Assembly: GCA_045593905.1 (NCBI GenBank)
Contig: JAZNXL010000069.1
Coordinates: 13,355-77,354 of the forward strand
Source of the DNA: Eubacteriales bacterium
GTDB lineage: Bacteria > Bacillota > Clostridia > Oscillospirales > QAKW01
Reading direction: 5' to 3'
Length of the DNA stretch: 64,000 nucleotides
Shown here: positions 29,663 to 64,000 of the stretch, piece after piece
How positions within the stretch are numbered: the first letter of the stretch is position 1
Layout of the letters: each line of letters opens with the position of its first letter
The notes under the pieces: generated by a model
The model's database searches: none
What the model was told of the DNA's origin: nothing
The model's input: the letters and a program-made list of their open reading frames with translations, nothing else
Made by a program: the position numbers and the translations under genes

Positions 29663-29666
29663 AAAT

Positions 29667-43800: not shown

Positions 43801-43833
43801 AAAAATTTTATATAATTAAAGGAGATAACTACA

Positions 43834-44523: not shown

Positions 44524-44534
44524 GGAGATTTGAT

Positions 44535-45956: not shown

Positions 45957-45961
45957 AAACT

Positions 45962-47005: not shown

Positions 47006-47598
47006 TAAACATTGCAGTTTTAGTGTCGGGCGGCGGCACAAACCTACAGGCGCTTATTGATGCCGAAAACTCACGCCTTATAACAAGCGGTAAAATTTCG
47101 CTTGTTATCTCAAACAACAAAAACGCATACGCGCTCGAGCGCGCAAAAAACGCGCGTATTAAAACCGAGGTGGTTTTAAAATCGGAGTGCGGTAGCAGCG
47201 CAGAGTTTGAGCAAAAAATAAAAGACCTGCTTTATGAAAACGACATTGACGTTATTGTTCTTGCAGGGTTTATGTCAATTCTTTCAGAGGACTTTACTTT
47301 AAGCTTCCCCGAGCGCATAATCAACGTTCACCCCTCGCTTATACCGTCCTTTTGCGGTAAAGGCTATTACGGACTAAAGGTACACGAGGAGGCGCTTAAA
47401 AAAGGCGTTAAGGTAACAGGCGCTACCGTGCATTTTGTAAACGAAATTCCCGACGGCGGAAAAATCATTATGCAAAAGGCGGTTGAGGTGCAAGATACCG
47501 ACACACCCGAAATACTGCAAAAGCGCGTTATGGAGCAGGCGGAGTGGATAATACTCCCCCGCGCCGTAGAGCAAGTTTGTAAAAATTTAAAGGATTAG
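47002..47598 (+). CDS. purN: GAR formyltransferase
   Basis: [12 protein letters not shown] motif, 198 aa. Confidence 0.92.
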
Positions 47599-47609
47599 GT
47601 ACAAAGACT

Positions 47610-48329: not shown

Positions 48330-48339
48330 GGAGCAGGCT

Positions 48340-49524: not shown

Positions 49525-49539
49525 TGAGAGGTTAGTTTA

Positions 49540-50808
49540 ATGAGAATACTTGTTGTTGGCGGCGGCGGACGCGAGCACGCCATTATCAAAAAAATTAAAG
49601 AAAACAAACAGGTAACCGAAATATTTGCACTGCCCGGCAACGGCGGTATGGCAAACGATGCAACGCTTGTTAACATTTCGGCAACCGACATTGAAAAAAT
49701 TGTAGATTTTGCAAAAACCAACCAAATCGACTACGCGGTTGTAGCACCCGACGACCCGCTAGTGCTGGGTTGTGTAGACCAGCTTGAAAAAATAGGTATC
49801 CCCTGCTTTGGTCCAAAGGCTAACGCCGCAATTATTGAAGGCTCAAAGGTTTTTTCAAAAAACCTTATGAAAAAGTACGGTATCCCCACCGCGCGCTACG
49901 AGGTGTTTGATAACGAGCAAAAGGCTCTTGAATATCTTGAAAGCGCGCCTATTCCTACAGTTATTAAGGCTGACGGACTTGCGCTTGGCAAGGGCGTTAT
50001 AATTGCAACCACACGCGACGAGGCTAAACAAGCGGTAATTTCGATTATTCGCGACAAAATGTTTGGAAAAAGCGGTGACAACATTGTAATTGAAGAGTTT
50101 TTAGAGGGCCCCGAGGTATCAGTACTCGCCTTTACCGACGGCAAAACCTTAAAGCCGATGGTATCGTCAATGGACCACAAGCGCGCAGGCGATAACGACA
50201 CAGGCCTTAACACAGGCGGTATGGGCACAATAGCACCCAACCCCTACTACACAAGCGATGTAGCAAAAGAGTGTATGGATAAAATTTTTATCCCCACAAT
50301 CAACGCTATGAACGCCGAGGGCAGAACCTTTAAGGGCTGTTTATACTTTGGTCTTATGATTACAAAGGACGGCCCCAAGGTAATTGAGTATAACTGCCGT
50401 TTCGGTGACCCCGAAACTCAGGTTGTGCTTCCGCTTTTAAAAAGCGACCTTTTAACTATAATGATGGCTACCACAAACGGCACACTCGACAAAACCGAGG
50501 TTGAGTTTAAAGACGAGTGCGCATGCTGTGTTGTAATGGCATCAAAGGGCTACCCTGTAAGCTACCAAAAAGGCTTTAAAATGGATATTCCCCAAGCGAT
50601 AGCAGATAACGTTTACGTTGCAGGCGCAAAGCTCGAGGGCGAAAGCCTTGTAACAAACGGCGGACGTGTGCTTGGCGCAACCGCTACCGCGCCCACACTC
50701 AAAGCGGCTATTGACGGCGCTTACAAACTTGTAAAACAAATAAGCTTTGACGGTGCTTTTTACCGCTCGGACATCGGCGCAAAAGCATTAAAGGCCAAGG
50801 AGGACTAA
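49540..50808 (+). CDS. purD: GAR synthetase
   Basis: MRILVVGGGGREHA N-terminus, ATP-grasp, 422 aa. Confidence 0.95.
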   Translation: MRILVVGGGGREHAIIKKIKENKQVTEIFALPGNGGMANDATLVNISATDIEKIVDFAKTNQIDYAVVAPDDPLVLGCVDQLEKIGIPCFGPKANAAIIEGSKVFSKNLMKKYGIPTARYEVFDNEQKALEYLESAPIPTVIKADGLALGKGVIIATTRDEAKQAVISIIRDKMFGKSGDNIVIEEFLEGPEVSVLAFTDGKTLKPMVSSMDHKRAGDNDTGLNTGGMGTIAPNPYYTSDVAKECMDKIFIPTINAMNAEGRTFKGCLYFGLMITKDGPKVIEYNCRFGDPETQVVLPLLKSDLLTIMMATTNGTLDKTEVEFKDECACCVVMASKGYPVSYQKGFKMDIPQAIADNVYVAGAKLEGESLVTNGGRVLGATATAPTLKAAIDGAYKLVKQISFDGAFYRSDIGAKALKAKED

Positions 50809-53800: not shown

Positions 53801-54501
53801 TAATTAACAATTTAACTGCAGACGGTCTTAAAGCAAGCACCGAAAAGTTTGCAACCGCTTTAAAAAGCGCGCAAATGATATTTATCCCCGGTGGTTTTTC
53901 GGGCGGTGACGAGCCTGACGGCAGCGGTAAGTTTATAACCGCGTTCTTTAGAAACGAGGCTATTAAAGAGGGCACACACGAGTTACTTAACAACCGCGAC
54001 GGTCTTATGTGCGGTATCTGTAACGGCTTCCAGGCACTTATAAAGCTCGGTCTTGTACCGTACGGCAAAATTATTGATGCCGACGAAAACTGCCCCACAC
54101 TTACATTTAACACAATCGCGCGCCACCAGTCACGAATTGTACGCACACGTATTGCATCAAACAAATCGCCCTGGCTTGCGCTTACCAACGTTGGCGATAT
54201 TTACAACGTACCGATTTCGCACGGCGAGGGTAGATTCTTGGCATCTGACGAGCTTGTAAAACAGCTTGCAGCAAACGGCCAGATTGCAACACAGTACGTT
54301 GACTTTGACGGCAATGCCACCTACGATGTACGCTTTAACCCCAACGATTCAGTTTGCGCTATCGAGGGTATCACATCGCCCGACGGCAGAGTTTTCGGTA
54401 AAATGGGCCACAGCGAAAGAATCGGCGCAGGTCTTTACAAAAACGTTGTCGGCGAGTACGATATCCGTATGTTTGAATCGGCAGTAAAATATTTTAAATA
54501 A
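50809..54501 (+). CDS. purL: Single-chain FGAM synthase (large PurL with fused glutaminase)
   Basis: 1230 aa. C-terminal triad glutaminase with Cys in GICNGFQAL and HGEGR. Confidence 0.95.
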   Translation: MVFRVYVEKKKELANEAASLLSDARSLIGIKGLTDVRIVNRYDAENITKELFEHSKATVFSEPQTDLVSEDINTDGAAVVFAVEYLPGQFDQRADSAAQCIQIISQTERPVIRTAKVYVLYGNLTQSDIAEIKKYVINPVEAREAALELPATLKAEYQIPTTVKTLDGFIDLDKKGLEYFVGEYGLAMDTDDIAFCQDYFKKEGRNPTITEIRMIDTYWSDHCRHTTFLTVIDNVSFEDELLQSTYNEYLATREGLGVKKPICLMDIATVAVKYLKKNGCLDKLDESEEINACTVKIEVEVDGKKEPWLLLFKNETHNHPTEIEPFGGAATCIGGAIRDPLSGRAYVYGAMRVTGAADPLKPVNETIPGKLPQRKIVTGAAAGYSSYGNQIGLATGIVDEIYHDGYAAKRMEIGAVIAAAPQKNVRRERPDPSDVVILLGGSTGRDGCGGATGSSKSHTSKSLESCGAEVQKGHAPEERKLLRLFRNAEATTLIKRCNDFGAGGVSVAIGELADGLEIDLNAVPKKYEGLDGTELAISESQERMAVVVEAKDVDKFLALAKEENLQACPVAVVTAEPRLVMHWNGNKIVDISREFLNSNGAAKHISIETAKPEIATKEIKGSFADNMSALAGDLNVCSKRGLSERFDSTISAGTVLMPFGGKNQLTPIQAMVQKISVEKEHTDDVSFMSFGYNPFITEKSPYHGAYLAVVESVCKLIATGADFNDVYLTFQEYFERPGKDAKRWGKPLAALLGAFKAQMNLKIGSIGGKDSMSGSFENIDVPPTLVSFAVTTGKVADVISNDFKKSGSRVVLLKADTDKNGLPETESLIKIFNTVTKLMREGKVLSCYTPGIGGIGEAILKMCIGNGVGFKFDNSVSMDDIFGYNYASFILECEGDVNEGTLLGYTTDKGCIGYKDECVCLDGLLKTYEDKLESVYSCNIEQTKQKAPNFSFEATERKAPAIKVAKPKVIIPAFPGTNCEFDSAKAVRDAGAEPEIIVINNLTADGLKASTEKFATALKSAQMIFIPGGFSGGDEPDGSGKFITAFFRNEAIKEGTHELLNNRDGLMCGICNGFQALIKLGLVPYGKIIDADENCPTLTFNTIARHQSRIVRTRIASNKSPWLALTNVGDIYNVPISHGEGRFLASDELVKQLAANGQIATQYVDFDGNATYDVRFNPNDSVCAIEGITSPDGRVFGKMGHSERIGAGLYKNVVGEYDIRMFESAVKYFK

Positions 54502-54513
54502 GAGGAAAGAAAA

Positions 54514-55749
54514 ATGAACTTTTTTGAAAATTTAAACAAGTTTGATAAAGAGGTTGCTGTTGCGTGTGACAAAGAGCTCACACGTCAGCGCCACAATATT
54601 GAGCTTATTGCATCAGAAAACATTGTTTCAGAAGCAGTGCTTTTAGCCGCAGGCGGCGTTTTAACAAACAAATACGCCGAGGGCTACCCCTCAAAGCGTT
54701 ACTACGGCGGTTGCCAATGCGTTGACATTGTAGAAGAAATTGCAAGAGAACGCGCTAAAAAACTTTTTGGTGCAGAGCATGCAAACGTACAGCCGCACTG
54801 CGGCGCGAGTGCAAACCTTGCTGTTTTCTTTGCGCTTTTAAACCCCGGCGACACCGTTATGGGTATGAATCTTTCAGAGGGCGGACACCTGTCACACGGC
54901 TCGCCTGTTAACATCTCGGGTAAATACTTTAACATAGTTCCTTACGGTGTTAACCCCGAGACCGAAATGATTGACTACGACGAGATGGAAAGAATCGCGC
55001 TTGAGTGCAAGCCCAAACTCCTCGTTGTAGGAGCTAGCGCATACTCGCGTATAATCGACTTTGCGCGTTGCCGTGAGATTGCCGACAAGGTTGGCGCTTA
55101 CCTTATGGTTGATATGGCGCACATTGCAGGCCTCGTTGCCGCAGGCGTTCATCCCTCACCTGTTCCGCACGCACACGTTGTAACAACCACAACCCACAAA
55201 ACATTAAGAGGCCCCAGAGGCGGCATGATTCTTTGCACCGAGGACCTTGCAAAGCAAATTGACAAAGCTATCTTCCCCGGTACACAGGGCGGTCCGCTTA
55301 TGCACATTATCGCCGCAAAAGCCGTTGCCTTTGGCGAAGCGTTAACACCCGAGTTCAAGGCTTACGGTGAGCAGGTTGTTAAAAACGCCAAGGTTCTTTG
55401 CGACGAGCTTATCGCTCGCGGTATCGACGTTGTTTCGGGCGGTACCGATAACCACCTTATGCTTTTAAAACTTGTTAACAAGGGCATTACAGGTAAAGAG
55501 CTTGAGCACAGACTCGACGAGGTTCACATTACCGCTAACAAAAACACAATTCCGCAGGAACCCTTAAGCCCGTTTGTTACAAGCGGTCTTAGAATCGGTA
55601 CACCTGCTGTTACAACCCGCGGCTTTAAAGAGCCCGAAATGAAACTTATCGCAGGCTGGATAGCCGACATCATCGACGATTTCGAGGGCAACAAAGACCG
55701 CGTAACAAAAGAGGTTATGGCACTCTGCGAAAAGTTCCCGATTTATTAA
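54514..55749 (+). CDS. glyA: Serine hydroxymethyltransferase
   Basis: PLP-lysine context [14 protein letters not shown], 411 aa. Confidence 0.96.
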
Positions 55750-55780
55750 AAAAAGAGAAGTCTAACGGCTTCTCTTTTTT
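55748..55780. terminator. Bidirectional terminator between glyA and the ClC gene
   Basis: AGAGAAG / CTTCTCT hairpin flanked by an A-run and a T-run. Overlaps the last codons of the ClC gene. Confidence 0.7.
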
Positions 55781-56910
55781 ATATTATATATAAGGTAAGA
55801 AATTATCATAGCACCCGCCACATACGGCACGGCTTTTAATCCAAACAATTCTGCGCACATTACAACCGCCGATATAGGCGCCGATGTAAACAGTCCAAAG
55901 GTTGTAAGCATACCAACGCACGCGCCAAGCGGAACGCTAAAACCAATCACAGCCGAAAGCGTTGCGCCAAACGTTGCGCCAACAAAAAAGGTGGGTACAA
56001 TCTCGCCGCCCTTAAAACCGCAGCCAAGAGTAATAGCGGTAAACACAATCTTAAATAAAAAGTCAAAGTAGTCAAACTCGCCCTCGGCAAATATATGCTC
56101 AACCACATTCATACCGCCGCCGTTATAACGCATATCCCCAACAAGCGCGGTCAACAATATCACAACCGCCGCGCCAACTACTATTCGTATATACGGGTTG
56201 GCTATTTTTGAAAATATCGCCCTGCCGCCCTTTAAACAACGCTTAAAAACAAAACAAATAACCGCGCAGCCTATTGCAACCGCCATTACCTTTAAAAGCA
56301 TTGTCCACTCAAACTCGGGCATTGTAAATTTAAGGTGTTCGGGTGACGAGCCAAGTAGCAAAGATACAAAATACGCGCAAATTCCCGATAAAACTACAGG
56401 AATAAGTAAAAAATACTCGCACGACCTTGCCGCCTCAAAAACAAACACAGATGCAGCCAAAGGTGTGCAAAACAGTGCCGAAAACATACCGCCCATACCG
56501 CAAAGCGACAATGTTTTACTGTCGTTTTGGTCAAGCTTAAATACCTTTGCAAAAAAGGCAGAAATACCGCTGCCTATTTGCAGCGCCGCCCCCTCTTTAC
56601 CTGCCGAGCCGCCAAAAAGGTGGGTAAGTACGGTCGATATAAACATCGACGGCACGATAGCAGGCGGAGTGTCGTTTTTAAGCGCCAAAACTCCGCTCGT
56701 TGTCACTTTGTTTGTCTTTAGGCGGTTGTTTATAAACACGCTCAAAAGACCCGCAAGCGGTAAAATCAGCAGTAAATAGCGGTACTCGGTTCTAAAGCTT
56801 GTTGCAAAGCTGAGCACCTTTAAAAACGCCGCGCCAATAACGCCCGATAGTATTGAAACCACCGCAAAGGGCGGTAGCAGTTTTAAAATTTTAACAATGC
56901 TTTTTTTCAT
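55762..56910 (-). CDS. ClC-family anion channel/antiporter (short form, no CBS domains)
   Basis: GKEGAALQIGSGI and GGEIVPTFFVGA motifs; about 10 TM helices. Confidence 0.8.
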   Translation of the reverse strand: MKKSIVKILKLLPPFAVVSILSGVIGAAFLKVLSFATSFRTEYRYLLLILPLAGLLSVFINNRLKTNKVTTSGVLALKNDTPPAIVPSMFISTVLTHLFGGSAGKEGAALQIGSGISAFFAKVFKLDQNDSKTLSLCGMGGMFSALFCTPLAASVFVFEAARSCEYFLLIPVVLSGICAYFVSLLLGSSPEHLKFTMPEFEWTMLLKVMAVAIGCAVICFVFKRCLKGGRAIFSKIANPYIRIVVGAAVVILLTALVGDMRYNGGGMNVVEHIFAEGEFDYFDFLFKIVFTAITLGCGFKGGEIVPTFFVGATFGATLSAVIGFSVPLGACVGMLTTFGLFTSAPISAVVMCAELFGLKAVPYVAGAMIISYLIYNIKKRSR

Positions 56911-57686
56911 TATTTGTAAAGTTCCTCAAAAAGCGGTTTGCTGTCAGCCAAAAGCTCTTTGCCGCCGCTTTTATTATAAATATCTTCAATAACGCTAAAA
57001 ATATCACGCGCGGCGAGTAGCTGGGTTTTTGCGCCGCCAATTTGCGAGTCGGTAACAATGCCGTGATGGTAAAACGCAGGCTCAAACTTAAAAAAGTTAG
57101 CCGATACATCGTCGCACACGCTATCGTCAAACCAATACAGATGCTTTTTAACAACTGTTCCGTCCTGCAAAATAACAGTGCGCTCAACCTTGTAGTCGGT
57201 CAGCCTGTTTTTAACCTTTAGCTTTTCTTCGACAAAGTGGATAAAGGTGTTTTTATTGTTGTTTACGCCAAGCAAAAGCACGTATCCGCCCATATCGTAA
57301 AGCTTGCCAAGGCAACCGTTCGGACTTGCGGGGGTATCGGTATCGCCGTCACCGTTTGCAAACTCTTTTGCGCGCTCGCCAAAAACCGCCATTGAGTGAG
57401 TGGGGTGGTCGGTGCGCACAGCATCGGGATGCGCCGCGGCGGTGCAAGGCAAAAGACCGAGGTTACTGTAATGCTCGCGCATATCGTAAACGTCGCTTGC
57501 CCAGGTGTGAGTAGGCACGCACAAAAGCCCGCCGTTTTTTGTAAAAAACTCTATTAAAATATCAAGCAGCCACTCTGCGCTCTCTACCCTGCCGATAGCC
57601 TTAATTGAGCTATGCACAATAACCGGCTTGCCCACCGCAAATTTATATGGCTCAAGGCCTTTTAAAACATCGGCTTTTGTCAGCAT
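56910..57686 (-). CDS. AAC(3)-family aminoglycoside N3-acetyltransferase-like protein
   Basis: 258 aa with N-terminal pattern VIVHSSIKAIG...LLCVPTHTW, typical of Antibiotic_NAT. The stop overlaps the ClC start by 1 nt. Confidence 0.75.
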   Translation of the reverse strand: MLTKADVLKGLEPYKFAVGKPVIVHSSIKAIGRVESAEWLLDILIEFFTKNGGLLCVPTHTWASDVYDMREHYSNLGLLPCTAAAHPDAVRTDHPTHSMAVFGERAKEFANGDGDTDTPASPNGCLGKLYDMGGYVLLLGVNNNKNTFIHFVEEKLKVKNRLTDYKVERTVILQDGTVVKKHLYWFDDSVCDDVSANFFKFEPAFYHHGIVTDSQIGGAKTQLLAARDIFSVIEDIYNKSGGKELLADSKPLFEELYK

Positions 57687-57745
57687 TTTTACTCCTTAAA
57701 ATTTTACTGTTATGCTTGTAATTATGCTACACGCCACCACAAAAG

Positions 57746-58459
57746 TCAAGAGTTTATAATAAGGTCGGCTGTGTAGTCGTCGGCGGCGTTCAAAATTGCG
57801 CTTATAAGGTATGCGCGCGGGTTTTTGGCGGTTTTGCCTTTTAGCGCGTCGACCATGCGAATAAGCGCGTCAGCACTTAGCCCTACAAGCTTTGAACGGA
57901 TATACGCGGTATCAAACCGCACACCGTGAACGTAAACAAATGGTAAGTAGTAAAGCTCGGTTATTATACTGCGTAGCATATCGCCTGTGCCATCAGACCA
58001 TATTTCAAGCTCACAGTTTTGTAAAATTTTAAAGAGCAGCTCGTCAGTCTTCGACTGACTTATATCAGTATTATTTATATCAGTATTAGTTGTAGGGAAA
58101 TTTTCCGTATCCCTATCGGGAATTTTTCCGTGTATTACAGGGAAATTTTCCGTATTTGAAAACGGATTAATTATATAAATTATATTTGCTTTTAAAAAAG
58201 TATTTTTTTCATAAATCAATCCAACTTTCTTTAGTTGCTTAAAATATTTAGTTATACTTTTTAAATCGGCTTTTAATATTTTTGATGCTTCTTGCCTTGT
58301 AAAATAAATAAACACCCTGCCGTTATCGTCAATAAGATTGTTTTTTTGCGATAATGAATACCTATCAAGCAAAAAAGCATAAAGCACCTTCGCGCTTATG
58401 CTTAAATCTTTATACTTATCATCAAAAAACAAATCTTTGGGTAGTTTTAAAAAGTTCAT
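57746..58459 (-). CDS. RepA_N-family replication initiator
   Basis: MNFLKLPKDLFFDDKYKDLSISAKVLYAFLLDRYSLSQKNNLIDDNGRVFIYFT matches the RepA_N N-terminal domain pattern. Start at ATG 58459 after AGGAGGG. Confidence 0.8.
   Translation of the reverse strand: MNFLKLPKDLFFDDKYKDLSISAKVLYAFLLDRYSLSQKNNLIDDNGRVFIYFTRQEASKILKADLKSITKYFKQLKKVGLIYEKNTFLKANIIYIINPFSNTENFPVIHGKIPDRDTENFPTTNTDINNTDISQSKTDELLFKILQNCELEIWSDGTGDMLRSIITELYYLPFVYVHGVRFDTAYIRSKLVGLSADALIRMVDALKGKTAKNPRAYLISAILNAADDYTADLIINS
58061..58155. repeat. Iteron-like direct repeats inside the rep coding sequence
   Basis: TATATCAGTATTA twice (58061, 58076; 15-bp register), then GGGAAATTTTCCGTAT / GGGAATTTTTCCGTGTAT / GGGAAATTTTCCGTAT at 58095, 58118 and 58140 (22-23-bp register). 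An AT-rich tract follows. Confidence 0.7.
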
Positions 58460-58595
58460 CGCACCCTCCTTTACATATAATTGTAAAGGCAACAACCGAA
58501 CATAACGAACAAAAGCACCAACCAAAAGGTCGGTTTTGTTTTGTATAAAAATGCCGTTATCGGCAATAATATAAGCAAACACCATTCTAATTACA

Positions 58596-58624
58596 TTGAC
58601 ATCTTGCCGATATTATGGTATACT
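58596..58624 (+). promoter_or_regulatory. Promoter of the HTH-Fic gene
   Basis: TTGACA (58596-58601), 17-nt spacer, TGG-TATACT (58616-58624). The 9-bp inverted repeat TATCGGCAA (58558-58566) / TTGCCGATA (58604-58612) places one half-site in the spacer. Confidence 0.65.
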
Positions 58625-58651
58625 AATAACAGTAAATTTGGAGGTGGGAAT

Positions 58652-59551
58652 ATGAAATATCTATCCGTTAAAGAGGTCGCTTTAATATGGAATACATCTC
58701 AGCGTAGTGTTCGTAATTATTGTGCTACAGGTCGTGTCCCCGGCGCTTTCCTTACAGGCAAAACTTGGAACATTCCCGAAAATGCCGAGAAGCCCGAAAG
58801 AAGCAATAAAAGCAAACCTGCTCCGCAGACATTGCTCGATGTTTTGAAAGAGGAAAAGCGCAGTCAGGTACACGGCGGAATTTATCATAAAATACAGATT
58901 GAACTGACCTACAACTCCAATCACATCGAAGGCAGTCGCCTCACCCACGATCAGACACGCTATATCTTTGAAACCAATACCATTGGTTTGACCGAGGAAG
59001 GCGTTCGTGTTGACGATATTATCGAAACCGCTACCCACTTCCGTTGCATAGATGAAATTATTGAGAGTGCAAAATCACAGCTCAGCGAAAAGTTTATAAA
59101 ACACTTGCATTTTATCCTCAAAACCGGAACAAGCGATTCAAAAAAAGGTTGGTTTGCTGTCGGTGATTATAAAAAGTTGCCTAACGAGGTCGGCGGTATG
59201 GAAACAACTCTCCCCGAAGATGTATCGCGTAATATGAAAAAGCTCCTTGCCGATTATAACAGCAAAGAAAATGTAACTCTTGAAGATATAATTGAGTTCC
59301 ACGTAAAGTTTGAGCGCATCCACCCGTTTCAAGACGGTAATGGTCGTGTCGGCAGACTCATTATGTTCAAGGAATGCTTAAAACACGGAATTGTTCCATT
59401 TATTATTGAAGATAAAATAAAAATGTTCTACTACCGCGGACTGAAAGAATGGAATCAAGAAAAAGGCTATCTCACCGACACCTGCCTTTCCGCACAGGAC
59501 ACGTTTAAAAATTATTTAGATTATTTCCGTATAATCTACGACAAGAATTAA
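58652..59551 (+). CDS. Fic-domain protein with N-terminal helix-turn-helix
   Basis: Intact Fic motif HPFQDGNGRVGR; upstream inhibitory-helix-type motif S-N-H-I-E-G; N-terminal MerR/excisionase-like HTH (LSVKEVALIWNTSQRSVRNYC). Start at ATG 58652 after GGAGGTGG. Confidence 0.88.
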   Translation: MKYLSVKEVALIWNTSQRSVRNYCATGRVPGAFLTGKTWNIPENAEKPERSNKSKPAPQTLLDVLKEEKRSQVHGGIYHKIQIELTYNSNHIEGSRLTHDQTRYIFETNTIGLTEEGVRVDDIIETATHFRCIDEIIESAKSQLSEKFIKHLHFILKTGTSDSKKGWFAVGDYKKLPNEVGGMETTLPEDVSRNMKKLLADYNSKENVTLEDIIEFHVKFERIHPFQDGNGRVGRLIMFKECLKHGIVPFIIEDKIKMFYYRGLKEWNQEKGYLTDTCLSAQDTFKNYLDYFRIIYDKN

Positions 59552-59574
59552 CTCAAATATAAGGATAGTTATCA

Positions 59575-60312
59575 ATGAAAAAATCATTAATTGCAATTTT
59601 ATCGTTATTTTTCTTGGCATTGCCTTTTATAGCATTAAGTACAGTTTATTTAATTTTTAAAATTAATATTTTTGACAATCCGGAGTTTTGGTATGGCTAT
59701 ATGGCATACTTTGGAACCGTTGCTTTAGCTGCTGTTGCCGTCTGGCAAAATAGAATTATTAAGGAAGAAAATGATAAGTCTCAAGAAAGGCTTGAAAGAT
59801 TGACAATTCAAGCAAATGAATTGACTGTTATTAGCAAGATTATCGAGAATGAATCACAGAACCTTTTAAGACTTAAAATAGCATTTGATGAATTTTCATA
59901 CGCATGTGATCCACAAGTATTATCAACGATATATGCCAATTCTACAACCGCTGCTGTACCGACTATAGCAATACAATCTGGAATGGCAACCGCAGAAAAG
60001 CGTATGGATGATAGTTTTTTTGCTTTATCTCGTGAATTAAGAATAGACCCCCAATTTATTATTAAAGATGAAAGCCCTTTTAAACTTGCTATTGCAAAAT
60101 ACTATTCTGCCGCAAAAAATTTGGTCGAAAAGGGAAGAACGAATCCGACACAAAGCTACAAAGAGGATATTGATATACTAACACAGGCGAGAAATGACTT
60201 CGTTGCTGTTAGGGAAAAATATTTGATAGAAAAAGAAAATAAGCTCAATAGAGTCATCTATGGTAAAATGACTCTTGATGAAATTAAAAATTTATACAAC
60301 CATAGTAATTGA
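59575..60312 (+). CDS. Hypothetical protein with two N-terminal TM helices and a helical cytoplasmic domain
   Basis: 245 aa, AT-rich. Hydrophobic segments at about residues 5-27 and 40-57. No motif recognised. AAGGATAG ribosome-binding site. Confidence 0.7.
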   Translation: MKKSLIAILSLFFLALPFIALSTVYLIFKINIFDNPEFWYGYMAYFGTVALAAVAVWQNRIIKEENDKSQERLERLTIQANELTVISKIIENESQNLLRLKIAFDEFSYACDPQVLSTIYANSTTAAVPTIAIQSGMATAEKRMDDSFFALSRELRIDPQFIIKDESPFKLAIAKYYSAAKNLVEKGRTNPTQSYKEDIDILTQARNDFVAVREKYLIEKENKLNRVIYGKMTLDEIKNLYNHSN

Positions 60313-60329
60313 AGTGTGAGGATTAAACT

Positions 60330-63116
60330 ATGAAAGATACTGAACGTCGTTCAGCGGCGAAAGCTTTTAGCGAATATTGGAAAGATAGAGGATATGAAAA
60401 GGGCGAAAGCCAACCGTTTTGGCTCTCGCTTCTTCGTGATGTCTTGGGTGTAGAAGCACCTGAAAAATTTATCACATTTGAGGAACAGGTGCGCCTTGAC
60501 CACACAAGCTTTATTGACGGTGTTATTCCGTCAACACATATACTTATTGAGCAGAAAGGTCGTAACAAAGACCTTCGCAAACCAATCAAACAATCAGACG
60601 GCACGTTACTTACACCGTTCCAACAGGCACAGCGTTATTCGGCAGTTCTTCCCTATTCACAGCGTCCTCGCTGGATAATTACTTGTAACTTTGAAGAATT
60701 CCTTGTTTATGATATGGAAAAGCCAAACGGCGAGCCTGAGCAGATTTTTGTAAAAGACTTGGCTCGTGAATATTACCGCCTTATGTTCATTGTAGATACC
60801 GGCGATGATAATATCCGTCGCGAAATGGAGGTTTCAATTCAAGCAGGTAATTTGGTCGGCATACTGTATGATGAGATTTTAAAACAGTATCACAACCCCG
60901 AAAACGAAGAATCTCTTAAAAGCCTTAACAAACTTATAGTTCGCCTTGTTTTCTGCCTTTATGCAGAAGATGCGGGCATATTCGGTGGACATTCCAAATT
61001 CCATAATTATATTAAGTCTTTCTCCGCACGTGATATGCGAAAGGCTCTTATTGAACTGTTCAAAATTCTTGACACAAAGCCCCAAGACCGCGACCCGTAT
61101 GAAGATGAGCAGCTTGCTGCCTTTCCGTATGTAAACGGTGGCTTATTTGCAGATGAAAATATTGAAATTCCGCAAATGAACGACCAAATTCGTGAACTGC
61201 TTCTACGTAATGCAAGCGAAGACTTTGACTGGAGTGCCATAAGCCCCACTATCTTTGGTGCGGTATTTGAAAGCACCCTAAACCCCGAAACTCGTCGTAG
61301 CGGTGGTATGCACTATACCTCTATTGAAAACATACATAAAGTTATTGACCCGTTGTTCCTTGACGAACTGCGCGATGAATTAGAAGAAATCAAATCTATT
61401 AAGGTTGCCAAGACAAGAGAAACAAAAATCAACGACTTCCGCGAAAAACTCGGCTCCCTTACCTTTTTCGACCCCGCTTGTGGTTCGGGCAACTTTTTAA
61501 CCGAAACCTATATTTCACTGCGCCGTTTAGAAAACGAAGCACTCGAAGAAATAACAAAAGGTCAAATTCTTTTTGATTTTGGCGATGTAATAAAGGTATC
61601 TATTAACCAGTTTTACGGAATCGAAATCAACGATTTTGCCGTAACTGTTGCTAAAACTGCGCTTTGGATAGCCGAGAGCCAAATGATGAAGGAAACGGAA
61701 GATATTATACATCAAGATCTCGAATTTTTACCGCTCAAAACCAATGCGCATATTGTCGAAGGTAACGCCCTTCGCATTGATTGGGAAACTGTTGTACCCA
61801 AGGACAAGCTCAATTGCATAATGGGCAACCCACCTTTTGTGGGTCAAGCTAAAAGAACAAAAGAACAATCTAAAGATATGTCTATGATTTTTGGTTCTGG
61901 AGCTTCTGAAACAAAATTGGATTATGTTATTTGTTGGTATAAGAAATCATTAGAGTTTATAAACAGTGTAACAAGCCGTAATATATTTGTAGCTTTTGTT
62001 TCAACCAATTCTATTTGCCAAGGTGAGACAGTTCCAACCTTTTGGCAAAATATGATTTCTAGCGGTGCAGAAATAATCTTTGCACACAGGTCTTTTAAAT
62101 GGAGTAGCGAATCATCAAATTCAGCAGCAGTAGTATGTGTTATTGTGGGATTTACAAATAAAGGTTATACAAAAGAAAAATTCATATTTGACAATTCTAA
62201 AGTAATTAAAGTATCGTATATTAATGCATATTTGCAAAATGCACCAGATGTGTGGATAACAAGTAGAAGTGCTGCATCCTTGCTAAAAGATTTCCCTAAA
62301 ATGATAAAAGGTAGCGAACCAACTGATGGTGGTAATCTGTTCTTGAATGCGCATGAAAAAGAGAATTTAGAAAGCCAATATCCTGTACTGAAAAAATATA
62401 TTCGCCCATTCGTTGGCGGTGATGAATTCTTAAGTAATGCTCAAGGTCAGTATTCCAGATACTGTCTTTGGTTTCTGAACGGTTCACCTCATGACTTTGC
62501 AAATATACAAGAAATAAAAGAACGACTTAAAAATGTTGCCGAAAAACGGCAACAAAGTTCAGCAGACAGAATACAAAAAAGAGCGATGTATCCATATTTA
62601 TTCTGTCAGATTCGGCAGCCAGAAAAAAATTATTTGTTATTTCCTAGACACACTACAAGTAGCAGAAGATATATCCCTTTAGGGTTTATGGATAGCAATA
62701 CTATAGTTGGTGATGCTTGTTACATAATTCCCGATGCCTCGTTATATCTATTTGGCATTATGATGTCGAATGTGCATATGTCATGGATGCGTGCTGTTTG
62801 CGGAAGATTAGGAAATGGTTATAGATACTCTCCCGCTATATACAACAACTTCCCTTGGCCAACCCCCACCGACGAGCAGAAAGCGGCTATTGAGAAAACG
62901 GCTCAAGCAATTCTTGATGCAAGAGCAAAGTATCCCGATTGTTCCCTTGCCGACCTCTATGACGAGGTTGCTATGCCGCCTGAACTGCGCAAAGCACATC
63001 AAGAAAACGATAAAGCTGTAATGCGTGCCTATGGTTTTTGGGGCAAAATCAACACCGAGTCCGAATGCGTCGCCGAACTTATGAAAATGTATCAGGAACT
63101 TACAAAGTATAAATAA
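60330..63116 (+). CDS. MmeI-like type IIL restriction-modification enzyme (nuclease + N6-adenine methyltransferase + target recognition domain in one chain)
   Basis: N-terminal PD-(D/E)xK-like D-x10-EQK (IDGVIPSTHILIEQK); helical domain RLVFCLYAEDAGIF and FPYVNGGLFAD; SPTIFGAVFES...HYTS; motif I FFDPACGSGNFL; motif IV GNPPFVG; 928 aa. Confidence 0.8.
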   Translation: MKDTERRSAAKAFSEYWKDRGYEKGESQPFWLSLLRDVLGVEAPEKFITFEEQVRLDHTSFIDGVIPSTHILIEQKGRNKDLRKPIKQSDGTLLTPFQQAQRYSAVLPYSQRPRWIITCNFEEFLVYDMEKPNGEPEQIFVKDLAREYYRLMFIVDTGDDNIRREMEVSIQAGNLVGILYDEILKQYHNPENEESLKSLNKLIVRLVFCLYAEDAGIFGGHSKFHNYIKSFSARDMRKALIELFKILDTKPQDRDPYEDEQLAAFPYVNGGLFADENIEIPQMNDQIRELLLRNASEDFDWSAISPTIFGAVFESTLNPETRRSGGMHYTSIENIHKVIDPLFLDELRDELEEIKSIKVAKTRETKINDFREKLGSLTFFDPACGSGNFLTETYISLRRLENEALEEITKGQILFDFGDVIKVSINQFYGIEINDFAVTVAKTALWIAESQMMKETEDIIHQDLEFLPLKTNAHIVEGNALRIDWETVVPKDKLNCIMGNPPFVGQAKRTKEQSKDMSMIFGSGASETKLDYVICWYKKSLEFINSVTSRNIFVAFVSTNSICQGETVPTFWQNMISSGAEIIFAHRSFKWSSESSNSAAVVCVIVGFTNKGYTKEKFIFDNSKVIKVSYINAYLQNAPDVWITSRSAASLLKDFPKMIKGSEPTDGGNLFLNAHEKENLESQYPVLKKYIRPFVGGDEFLSNAQGQYSRYCLWFLNGSPHDFANIQEIKERLKNVAEKRQQSSADRIQKRAMYPYLFCQIRQPEKNYLLFPRHTTSSRRYIPLGFMDSNTIVGDACYIIPDASLYLFGIMMSNVHMSWMRAVCGRLGNGYRYSPAIYNNFPWPTPTDEQKAAIEKTAQAILDARAKYPDCSLADLYDEVAMPPELRKAHQENDKAVMRAYGFWGKINTESECVAELMKMYQELTKYK

Positions 63117-63124
63117 TTTATAAT

Positions 63125-63151
63125 AAAAAAGCACCCGTTTGGGTGCTTTTT
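63125..63151. terminator. Bidirectional terminator, variant copy 5 of the GCACCC hairpin
   Basis: AAAAAAGCACCCGTTTGGGTGCTTTTT between convergent genes. Confidence 0.75.
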
Positions 63152-63545
63152 ATTTGAATCGGGATATTAAAATTAAGATTACGGCTATTATGAAAATAGC
63201 AATCAGCCATGCGCGGGCGGCGCGCTTTTTAGTGCGCCTGTTCGCTTTGCGATAGAGCGCAAGCGGGTCGGTTTTATTTAGCATTCGCTTATAAAAGCGT
63301 TTTACAAACAGCTCGTCTTCGGGCTTGCACATATTCTTTTCGGTGCAGTCGGGCTCGTGAACAATTTTATTGCGCAGATAGCGGCAATGCTTTAGCATTT
63401 TAAGGTCGGCATCCCAGCTGCTAACGTAGTACCCGCCGTTTGATATGCTTTGCATAGCATCAATATATGCCGATACGCGCCTGTCGTCGCCCATCACCTC
63501 ACCGCACAGCTTTTCAAGCCGCTTGTAACTATCAATAAACCCCAT
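63150..63545 (-). CDS. Hypothetical C-terminally tail-anchored protein
   Basis: 131 aa from ATG 63545 (ribosome-binding site GGAGGGG). Basic stretch RRTKKRAARA followed by a single C-terminal TM helix. No family recognised. Confidence 0.6.
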   Translation of the reverse strand: MGFIDSYKRLEKLCGEVMGDDRRVSAYIDAMQSISNGGYYVSSWDADLKMLKHCRYLRNKIVHEPDCTEKNMCKPEDELFVKRFYKRMLNKTDPLALYRKANRRTKKRAARAWLIAIFIIAVILILISRFK

Positions 63546-63670
63546 TTGCCCCTCCACTTTTTTACTAAAAGCATTATACCACAAATAAAAAACAAACGCA
63601 AAGCTCTTGCTTATCGGCTTCTACTGTTGTTACGGCCATACCATAACAAACATATCCGACAAACACATCA

Positions 63671-63701
63671 GACAAAACGGCGGCAAGTAACCCTTGCCGC
63701 C
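63671..63701 (-). terminator. Rho-independent terminator of the NifX/NifB-like gene
   Basis: GGCGGCAAG / CTTGCCGCC hairpin followed by TTTTG on the minus strand. Confidence 0.65.
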
Positions 63702-63708
63702 ATTCTAT

Positions 63709-64000
63709 TTAGTGACAGTTATGTCCGCAACCGTGGTCGCCGCAGGTGTGACCTTCGCCGTGGTGGTCGTGATGGTCGCATTTTACGTTTGGATTGAACC
63801 CAAGCCTACCGCCAAGCAATGCTTCGACTGCGGCATCGCAAGCTCCACTAACACCGCCGTAAAGTTTAATGCCGGCCTCAGCAAGCGCCATCTGTGCACC
63901 ACCGCCGATGCCGCCGCAAATAAGAGCATCTACACCGAGTGACGAAAGTAGTCCTGCAAGCGCTCCGTGTCCGCTGCCGCTTGCATCAACCACTTCGCTG
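63709..64000 (-). CDS. NifX/NifB-C-terminal-like (dinitrogenase FeMo-cofactor-binding fold) protein, 5' end outside the window
   Basis: GVDALICGGIGGGAQMALAEAGIKLYGG pattern, with a His/Cys-rich tail CDHHDHHGEGHTCGDHGCGHNCH. The frame stays open to the window edge. Confidence 0.65.
   Translation of the reverse strand, partial: SEVVDASGSGHGALAGLLSSLGVDALICGGIGGGAQMALAEAGIKLYGGVSGACDAAVEALLGGRLGFNPNVKCDHHDHHGEGHTCGDHGCGHNCH

What the first reader, a model, noticed from the sequence alone, without database searches (positions are those of the whole stretch)
57687..63600. Accessory island without an integrase: RepA_N initiator, HTH-Fic, 2-TM protein and an MmeI-like enzyme
The preceding ~57 kb is mostly housekeeping. 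From 57.7 kb the gene content switches to a plasmid/ICE-type replication initiator, a Fic enzyme, an orphan membrane protein, a single-chain restriction-modification enzyme and a tail-anchored orphan. Long stretches are visibly more AT-rich than the surrounding genes. I found no integrase, recombinase, relaxase or transposase, and no flanking direct repeats, so how the island arrived and whether it can still move are unknown. It begins about 60 bp upstream of the AAC(3)-ClC operon start, so it may have displaced or now supplies that operon's promoter.
Basis: partly seen in the sequence, partly recalled or inferred. Interest (0 to 1): 0.65.

Follow-up and report, generated by a model that had tools for sequence, protein, structure and literature searches.

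The report
Strain-variable defence gene insert beside chromosomal repA
A 4.6-kb block of three probable anti-phage genes (a Fic enzyme, a small membrane protein and an MmeI-type restriction enzyme) sits in a slot of a ruminant-gut bacterium's chromosome that is empty in sister strains. The "plasmid replication" gene next to it is not part of the insert but a long-conserved resident gene, so this is an ordinary variable defence locus with one curious neighbour.

Summary
The island is drawn wrongly, though.

**True boundaries.** A sister strain about 99% identical in the backbone (L004) and a second sample (X29) join window 58519 directly to 63127. The real insertion is therefore 58520-63126 (4607 bp) and carries HTH-Fic, the 2-TM protein and the MmeI-like enzyme. 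It lies in the 74-bp spacer between the DUF6548 terminator and the repA promoter. It is flanked by a 9-bp direct repeat, AAAAGCACC.

**Resident genes.** RepA_N and DUF6548 belong to the backbone. They are syntenic with AAC(3)-ClC in all four known lineages and are under purifying selection. The AAC(3) promoter is not touched by the insertion.

**A reused slot.** Other lineages and strains carry different cargo at the same nucleotide position. The three cargo genes also circulate separately elsewhere.

**Mobility.** I found no recombinase. The flanking repeat is the 5' arm of this genome's commonest terminator, so short-homology or flank-mediated recombination is more likely than self-mobility.

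**Side observation.** The iteron and DNA-binding cassette of repA is swapped among near-identical strains.

**Verdict.** This is an ordinary variable defence locus: a new member of a known kind, of moderate to low interest.

The parts
58520..63126 (+). The strain-variable insertion (4607 bp): own promoter, HTH-Fic, 2-TM protein and MmeI-type enzyme, all co-directional.
   Evidence: Absent from L004 (about 99% identical backbone), which joins 58519 to 63127. The same empty junction is seen in run X29 and the occupied junction in run X12. GC is 38.4% against 44.2% for the rest.
58511..58519 (+). Left copy of the 9-bp direct repeat AAAAGCACC.
   Evidence: Overlap of the two alignments to the empty site. 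The 9-mer is the 5' arm of a terminator stem that recurs in this genome: 13 copies against 1.5 expected.
63127..63150 (.). Right repeat copy (63127-63135) within the bidirectional terminator AAAAGCACCCGTTTGGGTGCTTTT. It is shared by MmeI (+) and DUF6548 (-).
   Evidence: Present intact in the empty site. Folds at -15.9 to -17 kcal/mol, z -3.8 to -6.0.
58517..58565 (-). Two terminator-like hairpins at the left end of the insert (58517-58534 and 58552-58565). They face repA.
   Evidence: Terminator scan. Fold -21.8 kcal/mol, z -4.4. The second hairpin and the 3' arm of the first are conserved in L010, an unrelated context.
58596..58624 (+). Promoter-like site TTGACA-17-TATACT, with TG before the second hexamer, upstream of Fic. 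It probably drives Fic, 2TM and MmeI as one operon.
   Evidence: Best match in the region, 11 of 12 positions. Conserved in L010 and in stand-alone Fic cassettes. Intergenic gaps are 23 and 17 bp.
58652..59551 (+). HTH_17-Fic protein (299 aa). Class II-type Fic with the active-site motif HPFQDGNGRVGR and the inhibitory motif SNHIEG.
   Evidence: Pfam Fic 2.7e-17 and HTH_17 2.5e-5. PADLOC PDC-S04 1e-114 and SoFic 6e-20. Closest solved structure is a Fic family protein, PDB 4X2E, at 3e-28. At least 594 relatives in gut metagenomes.
59575..60312 (+). 245-aa protein with an N-terminal TM hairpin and a helical-bundle domain inferred to be cytoplasmic. No known family.
   Evidence: No Pfam, PHROG, PADLOC or NCBIfam hit. 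56 homologues. AlphaFold model pLDDT 86.7, all helical. No significant PDB fold match, best E 0.12. Homologues lie beside Fic genes or directly upstream of RM genes.
60330..63116 (+). MmeI-family single-chain Type IIG restriction-modification enzyme (928 aa), apparently intact.
   Evidence: All five MmeI Pfam domains. PADLOC REase_MTase_IIG, E 0. Matches the MmeI structure 5HR4 at 2e-186, with D..ExK, FDPACGSGNF and NPPF aligned. 97% aa identity to the L002 enzyme at the same slot.
57746..58459 (-). repA (RepA_N family, 237 aa). Resident backbone gene, not part of the insertion. The listed ORF runs on to 58585, but the start conserved in all orthologues is at 58459.
   Evidence: Pfam 4e-23. 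Matches PDB RepA N-terminal domains 4PTA, 4PT7 and 5KBJ at 1e-17 to 1e-14. Orthologues in L001, L002/L003 and L004 all lie next to AAC(3)-ClC. dN/dS 0.26-0.30.
58094..58155 (.). Three 17-nt semi-palindromic repeats (AGGGAAATTTTCCGTAT) spaced 22-23 bp apart inside repA, next to a 25-29% GC stretch. Iteron-like.
   Evidence: The layout matches pSK41-type RepA_N replicons, whose ori lies centrally within rep (PMC5703833), and the description of RepA_N iterons in PMC7145576.
58040..58380 (-). Exchangeable repA cassette covering the iterons and the C-terminal half of the DNA-binding domain. The core is 58095-58278.
   Evidence: 53-76% identity to L004 here against about 99% on both sides, and 83-85% to L001. 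dS 1.7 against 0.05-0.09 for the flanks. Further alleles in runs X23 and X25 break at 58094 and 58278.
58469..58488 (.). Palindrome CTTTACAtataatTGTAAAG just upstream of the repA ribosome-binding site. Possibly an operator or promoter element (inferred).
   Evidence: Read from the sequence. The arms are conserved in L001, L002 and L004, while the centre varies.
63150..63545 (-). DUF6548 tail-anchored protein (131 aa from the conserved start). Resident backbone gene.
   Evidence: Pfam 4e-42. Present in L004 (96.9% nt) and L002. dN/dS 0.29.
55762..57686 (-). AAC(3)-family acetyltransferase (56910-57686) and ClC channel (55762-56910). Resident operon with its own promoter-like site at 57749-57721.
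   Evidence: Pfam. Syntenic in all four lineages. Promoter scan. The AAC(3) scores 84 bits against NCBIfam's cut-off of 270, so it is not a recognised resistance allele.

Best explanation
Window 58520-63126 is a small, non-autonomous cluster of probable defence genes. It occupies a recombination-prone slot in the chromosome of an uncultured ruminant-gut Firmicute (taxon inferred).

**The slot.** It is the 74-bp spacer between the terminator of the DUF6548 gene and the promoter region of a resident repA (RepA_N) gene.

**The cargo.** It is a mosaic of three units that circulate independently:
- an HTH-Fic cassette with its own promoter and upstream hairpins;
- a gene for a 2-TM helical-bundle protein;
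- an MmeI-type single-chain restriction-modification gene.

Here they are packed into one probable operon.

**Arrival (inferred).** The cluster has no recombinase. It most likely arrived and is exchanged by host recombination, in one of two ways:
- homologous exchange through the conserved flanks;
- short-homology crossover within terminator sequences. The 9-bp flanking repeat AAAAGCACC is the 5' arm of this genome's commonest terminator stem.

**Function (inferred).**
- The MmeI-type enzyme methylates and cuts at its recognition site.
- The Fic protein is an autoinhibited AMP-transferase of the PDC-S04 candidate-defence family.
- The membrane protein is a defence-island passenger of unknown action.

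**Shown or inferred.** The boundaries, the presence/absence polymorphism, the modularity and the residency of repA and DUF6548 are shown. The recombination route and the defence roles are inferred.
For: **Empty site and boundaries**
- L004 is 98-100% identical across ClC-AAC(3)-repA. It joins 58519 to 63127 with a 9-bp overlap.
- Independent runs show the empty junction (X29), the occupied junction (X12) and a third state that breaks at 58518 (X24).

**Reuse of the slot**
- L002/L003 (backbone about 76% identical) carry MmeI plus an unrelated 169-aa TM protein.
- L001 carries a 113-aa coiled-coil protein and a DUF1643 protein.
- All of them diverge directly after GAACATAACGAACAAAA.

**Modularity of the cargo**
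- Fic occurs alone in 80 of 80 metagenome loci. In the closest of them, DNA homology is confined to about 58545-59540.
- The 2TM gene occurs alone at 59561-60323 in L005-L008.
- Fic plus 2TM occur together in L009.
- All three occur together in L010, in another context, at 86.6% nt identity starting at 58530.
- MmeI occurs without Fic or 2TM in L002.

**Recent horizontal exchange**
- The MmeI 3' half is 99-100% nt identical between the window and L002, although their backbones are only about 76% identical.

**Composition**
- 38.4% GC against 44.2%.

**No mobility genes**
-.

**Nature of the repeat**
- AAAAGCACC occurs 13 times in the window against 1.5 expected. It is the stem arm of at least five terminators.

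**Residency of repA and DUF6548**
- Synteny in four lineages.
- dN/dS 0.26-0.30, like AAC(3) at 0.21 and ClC at 0.24.

**Defence association**
- PADLOC PDC-S04 1e-114 and REase_MTase_IIG E 0.
- A 2TM homologue lies directly upstream of a Type II RM pair in L013, and another lies beside a SoFic-like gene in L006.

**Precedent**
- RM units without mobility genes, flanked by repeats, with empty sites in sister strains and allelic substitution (PMC2853133).
Against: - The direction of the event is not settled. Three of four lineages have something in the slot, so the empty state could be a deletion between the 9-bp repeats.
- A 9-bp duplication is also what many transposases leave behind.
- No crossover point in the flanks could be demonstrated. 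The 140 bp between the repA cassette and the insert is 99% identical to the empty-site strain.
- PDC-S04 has never been shown to defend. One direct test was negative (bioRxiv 10.1101/2024.12.20.629700).
- The 2-TM protein has no demonstrated function.
- All comparison sequences are metagenome contigs, mostly under 10 kb.
- The contig continues beyond the window, and I could not see that part.
Confidence: 0.65

Rival explanations
1. The segment is a non-autonomous mobile element moved in trans. Either a transposase made the 9-bp target-site duplication, or a site-specific recombinase recognises AAAAGCACC or the terminator hairpin as an attachment core. The second case would resemble a cis-mobilisable element (CIME).
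For: - Exact 9-bp direct repeat at the boundaries, with a clean empty site.
- The same few nucleotides are the breakpoint for different cargo in L001, L002 and X24.
- The left end of the Fic cassette is a conserved hairpin in unrelated contexts.
- Some 2TM or Fic homologues lie near a serine recombinase, a tyrosine integrase or a DDE transposase.
Against: - No terminal inverted repeats between the two ends (and by eye).
- No recombinase in the insert or elsewhere in the part of the window I examined.
- The repeat is part of a generic terminator stem that is over-represented in the genome, so it needs no transposase to explain it.
- The cargo is a mosaic whose parts have different distributions, not one conserved unit.
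- In L002 the possible repeat shrinks to an A-run.
Confidence: 0.12
2. The occupied state is ancestral. The empty sites in L004 and X29 arose by deletion between the two 9-bp repeats, so nothing arrived recently at this locus in the window's strain.
For: - The slot is occupied in three of four lineages.
- Deletion between short direct repeats is a known RecA-independent process (general knowledge).
- The left repeat copy is also present in the X24 strain, which carries different left-hand cargo.
Against: - In L001 and L002 the left junction lacks GCACC, so the left copy is not ancestral backbone.
- The empty site carries a perfectly intact terminator.
- The cargo is compositionally foreign.
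- Its MmeI 3' half is 99-100% identical to that of a lineage with a 76% identical backbone, which requires recent transfer whatever the direction.
Confidence: 0.15
3. The whole stretch from repA to DUF6548 and beyond is the edge of a still-mobile ICE or integrated plasmid, and its recombinase lies outside the window.
For: - Chromosomal RepA_N genes are reported to be linked to tyrosine or serine recombinases (Weaver et al. 2009, as cited in PMC7145576).
- A DUF6548 homologue lies near two serine-recombinase ORFs in L020.
- A RepA_N gene lies next to ParA/ParB and an HTH-Fic in L064.
- L002 has small HTH_17-like genes beyond DUF6548.
Against: - repA and DUF6548 keep the same position next to AAC(3)-ClC-GlyA-PurL in four lineages, with dS up to about 1 and purifying selection.
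- The 4.6-kb polymorphism is internal to that conserved pair.
- The right flank seen in the window is a Nitro_FeMo-Co-domain gene, not an element gene.
- An ancient relic origin for repA and DUF6548 remains plausible, but a currently mobile ICE edge does not.
Confidence: 0.06

Closest known systems
Restriction-modification gene units that behave as mobile or allelic units without mobility genes (Furuta, Abe and Kobayashi 2010, PMC2853133)
   Same: - An RM gene with no linked integrase or transposase.
- Flanked by a direct repeat that is single-copy in the empty site of a sister strain.
- Alternative cargo at the same locus in other lineages (allelic substitution).
- Diversity in the target-recognition domain.
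   Different: - The repeat here is only 9 bp. Their 'long target duplication' class has about 46 bp or more, and their short-duplication cases have long inverted repeats, which are absent here.
- The RM gene travels with two non-RM genes.
- The repeat is a generic terminator arm.
Defence islands and chromosomal defence hotspots between conserved core genes (general concept; from my own knowledge)
   Same: - Conserved flanking genes.
- Variable, AT-rich cargo made of RM and candidate defence genes.
- Different cargo in different strains, and an empty state.
- No dedicated recombinase in the cargo.
   Different: - Very small, only three genes.
- One flank is a RepA_N replication-initiator gene with iterons rather than a housekeeping gene.
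- Defence activity has not been tested for two of the three genes.
MmeI (Type IIG/IIL single-chain restriction-modification enzyme; structure 5HR4)
   Same: - Full-length alignment at E 2e-186.
- All five MmeI Pfam domains.
- Nuclease D..ExK motif, SAM motif FDPACGSGNF and catalytic NPPF conserved.
- No separate methyltransferase gene beside it.
   Different: - The target-recognition domain is divergent, so the recognition sequence is unknown.
- Activity not tested.
pSK41-type RepA_N plasmid replicons and the pPR9 chimeric initiator (Kwong et al. 2017, PMC5703833); PLE satellite RepA/ori (PMC7145576, PMC8263062)
   Same: - N-terminal winged-helix domain, a central linker that carries repeats inside the gene, and a separate C-terminal domain.
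- A block of about 200-350 bp (DNA-binding part plus repeats) is replaced while the C-terminal domain stays almost identical. pPR9 differs from pSK41 in the same way.
   Different: - The gene is chromosomal and vertically inherited, with no partition, transfer or recombinase genes beside it.
- The protein is shorter (237 aa against 319 aa).
- Replication activity has not been tested.
Fic family protein of PDB entry 4X2E (which I recall to be Clostridioides difficile CdFic) and the PADLOC candidate PDC-S04 / SoFic defence proteins
   Same: - Fic core with HPFxDGNGRxxR and the N-terminal inhibitory SxxxEG motif.
- E 3e-28 to 4X2E and 1e-114 to a PDC-S04 model.
   Different: - Carries an extra N-terminal HTH_17 domain.
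- PDC-S04 is only a candidate, and one native-host test found no defence.
- Far below the NCBIfam SoFic cut-off (27 against 550 bits).

Membership tests
Integrative conjugative or mobilisable element (ICE/IME) | Encodes an integrase or recombinase (tyrosine, serine or DDE) | tested here: not met
   No such Pfam domain in any ORF from 55.7 to 64 kb. Sampled ORFs elsewhere in the window are housekeeping.
Integrative conjugative or mobilisable element (ICE/IME) | Relaxase/oriT or conjugation genes | tested here: not met
   None among the insert's three genes or the flanking genes.
Integrative conjugative or mobilisable element (ICE/IME) | Attachment-site repeats at both ends, single-copy in the empty site | tested here: inconclusive
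   A 9-bp repeat, AAAAGCACC, is present. It is a generic terminator arm with 13 copies in the window.
DNA transposon or non-autonomous derivative | Terminal inverted repeats | tested here: not met
   No inverted repeat pairs the two ends (ends read).
DNA transposon or non-autonomous derivative | Target-site duplication of fixed length | tested here: inconclusive
   9 bp in the window. Only an A-run is shared in L002. The break is at 58518 in X24.
Genomic island (classical definition) | Present in some strains and absent from close relatives | tested here: met
   Empty in L004 and X29, occupied in the window and X12.
Genomic island (classical definition) | Deviant base composition | tested here: met
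   38.4% against 44.2% GC. 0 of 540 control windows is as low.
Genomic island (classical definition) | Insertion next to a tRNA gene, with an integrase | tested here: not met
   No tRNA in the window and no integrase.
RepA_N family theta-replicon initiator (applies to the neighbouring repA gene, not the insert) | N-terminal RepA_N winged-helix DNA-binding domain | tested here: met
   Pfam PF06970 4e-23 over the whole model. PDB 4PTA at 9e-17.
RepA_N family theta-replicon initiator (applies to the neighbouring repA gene, not the insert) | Cognate semi-palindromic repeats (iterons); in pSK41-type replicons these lie centrally within rep | tested here: met
   Three 17-nt repeats spaced 22-23 bp apart at 58094-58155, beside a 25-29% GC stretch. 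Binding not tested.
RepA_N family theta-replicon initiator (applies to the neighbouring repA gene, not the insert) | Supports autonomous replication of a plasmid or element | not testable with these tools
   The gene is chromosomal and syntenic in four lineages. Testing this needs a mini-replicon assay.
MmeI-family Type IIG restriction-modification enzyme | Single chain with the N-terminal nuclease, helical spacer, methyltransferase, TRD and C-terminal domains | tested here: met
   PF20464, PF20465, PF20473, PF20466 and PF20467 are all above their cut-offs.
MmeI-family Type IIG restriction-modification enzyme | Catalytic motifs: D..ExK nuclease, FxGxG SAM-binding and NPPF | tested here: met
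   Aligned to MmeI 5HR4: fiD...iliEqK, ffdpacGsGnf and gNPPFvg.
MmeI-family Type IIG restriction-modification enzyme | Cleaves at a fixed distance from an asymmetric site and methylates one strand | not testable with these tools
   Needs enzyme assays or methylome sequencing.
Fic AMP-transferase, class II; PADLOC PDC-S04 | Active-site motif HxFx(D/E)GNGRxxR | tested here: met
   HPFQDGNGRVGR, seen in the translation and aligned to 4X2E.
Fic AMP-transferase, class II; PADLOC PDC-S04 | Inhibitory helix motif (S/T)xxxE(G/N) N-terminal to the core in the same chain | tested here: met
   SNHIEG, aligned to SNKIEG of 4X2E.
Fic AMP-transferase, class II; PADLOC PDC-S04 | Protects against phage | not testable with these tools
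   The HMM match is 1e-114, but the family is an untested candidate and one test was negative.

The most novel reading that the evidence does not exclude
The resident chromosomal repA-iteron unit may still be an active replicon-like device, and its activity may be tied to the adjacent cargo slot. Strains that are otherwise 98-100% identical carry at least five different iteron and DNA-binding cassettes at the same place. That points to diversifying selection of the kind seen when plasmid incompatibility groups shift, or when PLE satellites escape a phage's origin-directed nuclease.

Two readings fit:
- the unit interferes with incoming plasmids or phages that use the same iterons;
- it fires in situ, for example on phage infection, amplifying the neighbouring defence genes and promoting their lateral transfer.

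The second reading would also explain how cargo without an integrase turns over at exactly this spot.
Probability: 0.1. Interest if true: 0.7.

Novelty: new member of a known kind. Interest (0 to 1): 0.35.

Why it matters
**The insert itself.**
- It is one more example of how restriction and candidate defence genes turn over at fixed chromosomal slots without any recombinase of their own.
- The boundaries are unusually clean. The insertion sits inside the A-tract and 5' arm of a terminator, and occupied, empty and alternative states are all found in wild samples.
- It shows that the HTH-Fic (PDC-S04), the 2-TM protein and the MmeI-type gene are separable modules. It gives the uncharacterised 2-TM family a defence-island association worth testing.

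**What it corrects.** A RepA_N hit next to accessory genes need not mark a mobile element.

**The more interesting lead.** The repA gene is conserved and under selection, yet its specificity cassette is shuffled among strains. If that replicon is active, it would link a domesticated plasmid origin to defence-gene turnover.

Tried and rejected
- **Close relatives in species-representative genomes (GTDB).** Two scans with AAC(3), once as a single protein and once as a four-sequence alignment, found nothing. The lineage is known only from ENA and Logan metagenome contigs.
- **Exact look-up of the window's AAC(3).** Not on record.
- **Plasmid database.** There is no DNA match to the island. RepA matches staphylococcal plasmid RepA only over the N-terminal domain, at about 48% identity.
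- **Viral contigs.** No relatives of the 2-TM or DUF6548 proteins.
- **Fic, 2TM and MmeI as one obligate three-gene system.** Rejected. 80 of 80 metagenome loci with 74-92% identical Fic lack both partners, and each gene occurs with other neighbours.
- **Integron-cassette reading.** Rejected. There are no attC-like hairpins at the internal junctions, which are 17-23 bp and hold only ribosome-binding sites, and no IntI.
- **The contig as a plasmid or chromid replicated by RepA.** Rejected. The core genes are typical of a Firmicute chromosome. The gene strand bias does not centre on repA, and the GC skew gives no signal.
- **Function of the 2-TM protein from structure.** The model is confident, but it matches only generic four-helix bundles (E at least 0.1).
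- **Deeper outgroups through AAC(3) homologues.** At 56-58% identity, synteny is already lost.
- **Excision joints in reads.** Contig-level runs show none in the window's own configuration. Contigs cannot show rare forms.
- **Similarity between the 2-TM protein and the 169-aa TM protein of L002.** None.
Full report
**1. What is at the coordinates**

- RepA_N initiator: 57746-58459, minus strand. The mechanical ORF runs on to 58585, but all orthologues start at the ATG at 58459.
- HTH_17-Fic protein: 58652-59551, plus strand.
- A 245-aa protein with two N-terminal TM helices and no family: 59575-60312, plus strand.
- A 928-aa enzyme with all five MmeI domains: 60330-63116, plus strand.
- A tail-anchored protein: 63150-63545, minus strand. 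It is a member of Pfam DUF6548 rather than an orphan.

To the left lie the AAC(3)-family gene (56910-57686) and the ClC gene (55762-56910). To the right lies a Nitro_FeMo-Co-domain gene.

PADLOC places the Fic protein in the candidate family PDC-S04 (1e-114) and the large enzyme in REase_MTase_IIG (E 0). No integrase, transposase or relaxase domain is present. The cargo genes are separated by only 23 and 17 bp.

The rest of the window that I sampled is chromosomal housekeeping: TadA, SpoVB, YabN/MazG, glutamate dehydrogenase, a Tex-like protein and pyruvate kinase, with PurL and GlyA next to the locus. There is no tRNA gene.

**2. The real boundaries**

RepA has only three close relatives among 5.8 billion clustered proteins, at 79, 74 and 63% identity. 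All three lie immediately next to AAC(3)-ClC in the same order and orientation. In L001 the synteny continues through GlyA and PurL.

One of these contigs, L004, is 98-100% identical to the window over ClC-AAC(3)-repA. It runs from window position 58519 straight into 63127. In that strain the DUF6548 terminator, AAAAGCACCCGTTTGGGTGCTTTTT, lies 60 bp upstream of the repA start codon.

The variable segment is therefore 58520-63126 (4607 bp). The two alignments overlap by 9 bp, so the insert is flanked by AAAAGCACC at 58511-58519 and 63127-63135.

Independent public runs confirm that this is a natural polymorphism and not an assembly artefact:
- a contig in X29 reads through the empty junction;
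- a contig in X12 reads through the occupied left junction;
- a contig in X24 breaks at 58518 into a third, unrelated sequence.

The runs that hold these sequences are labelled bovine, sheep, goat, wildlife or generic gut metagenomes.

**3. repA and DUF6548 are residents, not cargo**

Both genes are present and adjacent in the empty-site strain. Across the four lineages the backbone falls to about 76% nt identity.

| Gene | dN/dS | dS |
|---|---|---|
| repA | 0.26-0.30 | 0.77-0.97 |
| AAC(3) | 0.20-0.23 | 0.43-0.71 |
| ClC | 0.24-0.28 | 0.68-0.82 |
| DUF6548 | 0.29 | 1.05 |

These values compare the window with L001 and L002. repA is therefore a vertically inherited gene under selection in this clade.

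AAC(3) homologues at 56-58% identity no longer share the neighbourhood, so the age of the arrangement cannot be pushed further back.

A DUF6548 homologue lies near two serine-recombinase ORFs in L020, and a RepA_N gene lies beside ParA/ParB in L064. An ancient mobile-element origin for the pair is therefore plausible. That is a different claim from the one made in the finding.

The insertion lies 830 bp away on the other side of repA. The repA-AAC(3) spacer carries a promoter-like TTGACT-17-CATAAT and is part of the conserved backbone.

**4. The slot is reused and the cargo is modular**

All four lineages are colinear up to ...GAACATAACGAACAAAA and then diverge.
- L004 continues into the terminator.
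- The window continues into the Fic cassette.
- L002/L003 continue into an MmeI gene followed by an unrelated 169-aa TM protein.
- L001 continues into a 113-aa coiled-coil protein and a DUF1643 protein.

The three cargo genes have different distributions.
- **HTH-Fic.** It has at least 594 relatives in metagenome contigs. In the 80 best loci (74-92% aa identity), none has the 2-TM or MmeI gene nearby. In the closest of them, DNA homology spans about 58545-59540, which is the promoter, the gene and nothing else.
- **The 2-TM gene.** It occurs alone at 84% nt identity over 59561-60323 in L005-L008, and together with Fic in L009. A 40%-identical homologue lies directly upstream of a Type II methylase/endonuclease pair in L013. 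Another homologue lies beside a SoFic-like gene in L006.
- **All three together.** They occur in L010, in an unrelated context, at 86.6% nt identity from 58530 to 61843. Beyond that point the MmeI target-recognition region is only about 50% identical.

The window's MmeI 3' half (61490-63013) is 99-100% nt identical to that of L002, although the backbones are about 76% identical. The 5' half is a patchwork of 82-97% identity. The cargo has therefore moved between lineages recently, and it is itself recombinant.

**5. Internal anatomy of the insert**
- The left end carries two hairpins that read as terminators on the minus strand, at 58517-58534 and 58552-58565. The second hairpin and the 3' arm of the first are conserved in L010. 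An L010-type left arm precedes the Fic cassette in run X28.
- The best promoter-like site of the region follows at 58596-58624: TTGACA-17-TATACT, with TG before the second hexamer, matching 11 of 12 positions. It lies 28 bp before the Fic start codon and is conserved in L010. I infer that Fic, 2TM and MmeI form one operon.
- The right end is the MmeI stop codon, 10 bp of A/T, and then the resident bidirectional terminator.

Features of the three proteins:
- **Fic.** It has the active-site motif HPFQDGNGRVGR and the inhibitory motif SNHIEG. It is most similar to the Fic family protein of PDB entry 4X2E, at 3e-28, which I recall to be the Clostridioides difficile protein CdFic.
- **MmeI-like enzyme.** It aligns end to end with the MmeI structure 5HR4 at 2e-186. 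The D..ExK, FDPACGSGNF and NPPF motifs are in place.
- **2-TM protein.** It gives a confident all-helical model (pLDDT 86.7): a TM hairpin, a long helix and a helical bundle. It has no significant structural relative.

**6. How it got there**

The ends share no inverted repeat, and there is no recombinase. The 9-bp repeat is not a neutral sequence. AAAAGCACC occurs 13 times in the window against 1.5 expected. It forms the 5' arm of at least five terminators of the form AAAAAGCACCC-N4-GGGTGC followed by a T-run.

The left boundary of the Fic cassette also falls inside a terminator-type hairpin. In L002 the only repeat shared by the two junctions is an A-run.

I therefore favour host-mediated recombination. 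This could be exchange through the conserved flanks, or crossover at short terminator homology, possibly with a circular intermediate. I favour this over transposition or site-specific integration. Neither route is shown, and the direction of the event (insertion or deletion) is not settled.

Furuta et al. 2010 (PMC2853133) describe the same class of observation. They report RM units without mobility genes, flanked by repeats that are single-copy in a sister strain's empty site, and allelic substitution at one locus.

**7. The side observation: a shuffled specificity cassette in repA**

The window's repA has the three-part layout described for pSK41-type RepA_N initiators in PMC5703833.
- An N-terminal winged-helix domain, matching PDB 4PTA, 4PT7 and 5KBJ at 1e-17 to 1e-14.
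- A central linker whose DNA carries three 17-nt semi-palindromic repeats spaced 22-23 bp apart (58094-58155), next to a 25-29% GC stretch.
- A separate C-terminal domain.

Against L004 the gene is about 99% identical except for 58040-58380 (53-76% identical, dS 1.7). There the window resembles L001 instead, at 83-85%.

Each lineage has its own repeats at this place. Contigs from runs X23 and X25, otherwise about 98% identical to the window, switch to yet other sequence at 58094, and the X25 contig switches back at 58279. Both alternative sequences seen in X23 contain short inverted repeats. That makes at least five cassette alleles.

Two cases are comparable:
- the roughly 500-bp replacement of the RepA_N domain and origin that distinguishes pPR9 from pSK41 and makes the two compatible (PMC5703833);
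- the RepA_N replicon of the Vibrio PLE satellites (PMC7145576), and what I recall of PMC8263062 on PLE origin variation under attack by a phage nuclease. I saw only that paper's abstract here.

Such swaps are not known to me for a chromosomal, vertically inherited repA. This is the basis of the novel reading, to which I give a low probability.

An RNA-seq run (X24) holds contigs over ClC, AAC(3), the 5' part of repA and DUF6548. That is weak evidence of expression, because DNA carry-over cannot be excluded.

**8. Verdict**

- The accessory segment is real. It is smaller than proposed (58520-63126) and contains three genes, not five.
- It is flanked by a 9-bp repeat and sits in a reused slot between two resident genes.
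- It is best described as a small, modular, non-autonomous defence-gene cluster, a new member of a known kind.
- The defence role is well grounded for the MmeI-type enzyme. It is only associative for the Fic protein (PDC-S04 is untested, with one negative trial) and for the 2-TM protein.
- The most interesting thread for follow-up is the repA cassette polymorphism, not the island.

Noticed in passing
window 58040-58380 (core 58095-58278), inside repA: The iteron and DNA-binding cassette of the resident repA gene is replaced among strains that are otherwise 98-100% identical. At least five alleles are seen (window/L001, L004, L002 and two in X23; the X25 replacement sequence was not shown).
   Followed up: partly
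window 4159-4182, 4355-4378, 18383-18406, 28378-28401, 63127-63150: One terminator design, AAAAAGCACCC-N4-GGGTGC followed by a T-run, recurs at five or more sites. Its 9-mer AAAAGCACC occurs 13 times against 1.5 expected.
   Followed up: partly
window 61490-63013 compared with L002 and L010: The MmeI gene is a mosaic. Its 3' half, including the target-recognition domain, is 99-100% nt identical to that of a lineage with a 76% identical backbone. The L010 copy shares the 5' half (about 87-95%) but is only about 50% identical in the recognition region.
   Followed up: partly
window 43155-43258 (+): ZMP/ZTP riboswitch (Rfam RF01750, 52.5 bits). It lies just upstream of the plus-strand gene run at 43276-55749, which ends with PurL and GlyA.
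   Followed up: no
window 56910-57686 (-): The AAC(3)-family gene is a conserved chromosomal gene of this clade. It scores far below NCBIfam's AAC(3) cut-offs (84 against 270 bits), so it is not a recognised acquired resistance allele.
   Followed up: partly
window 14001-15000, 17001-18000 and 28001-30000: Other short low-GC patches (0.33-0.37). One contains a 281-aa ORF at 28736-29581 with no NCBIfam match.
   Followed up: no
L002 about 1300-2655: The L002 lineage has about 1.4 kb of extra small genes (119 aa, and 85 aa with a weak HTH_17 match) on the far side of DUF6548. The window has none there, which suggests a second variable slot.
   Followed up: no
L064 751-5907 and L020 84-11001: HTH-Fic homologues (76% and 85% identical) lie in element-like settings. 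In L064 the gene sits beside a ParA/ParB fusion and a RepA_N gene. In L020 it sits near a DUF6548 homologue and two serine-recombinase ORFs.
   Followed up: partly
L010 1227-1552: A non-coding stretch of about 330 bp upstream of the Fic cassette carries several similar short motifs (ACATCGTT, ACATCATT, AACGTCGTT, ATGATGTT).
   Followed up: no
window 55745-58518 and 63049-63903, run X24: An RNA-seq run labelled 'whole organism metagenome' holds contigs covering ClC, AAC(3), the 5' part of repA and DUF6548. This hints that the genes are transcribed, but DNA carry-over is not excluded.
   Followed up: no
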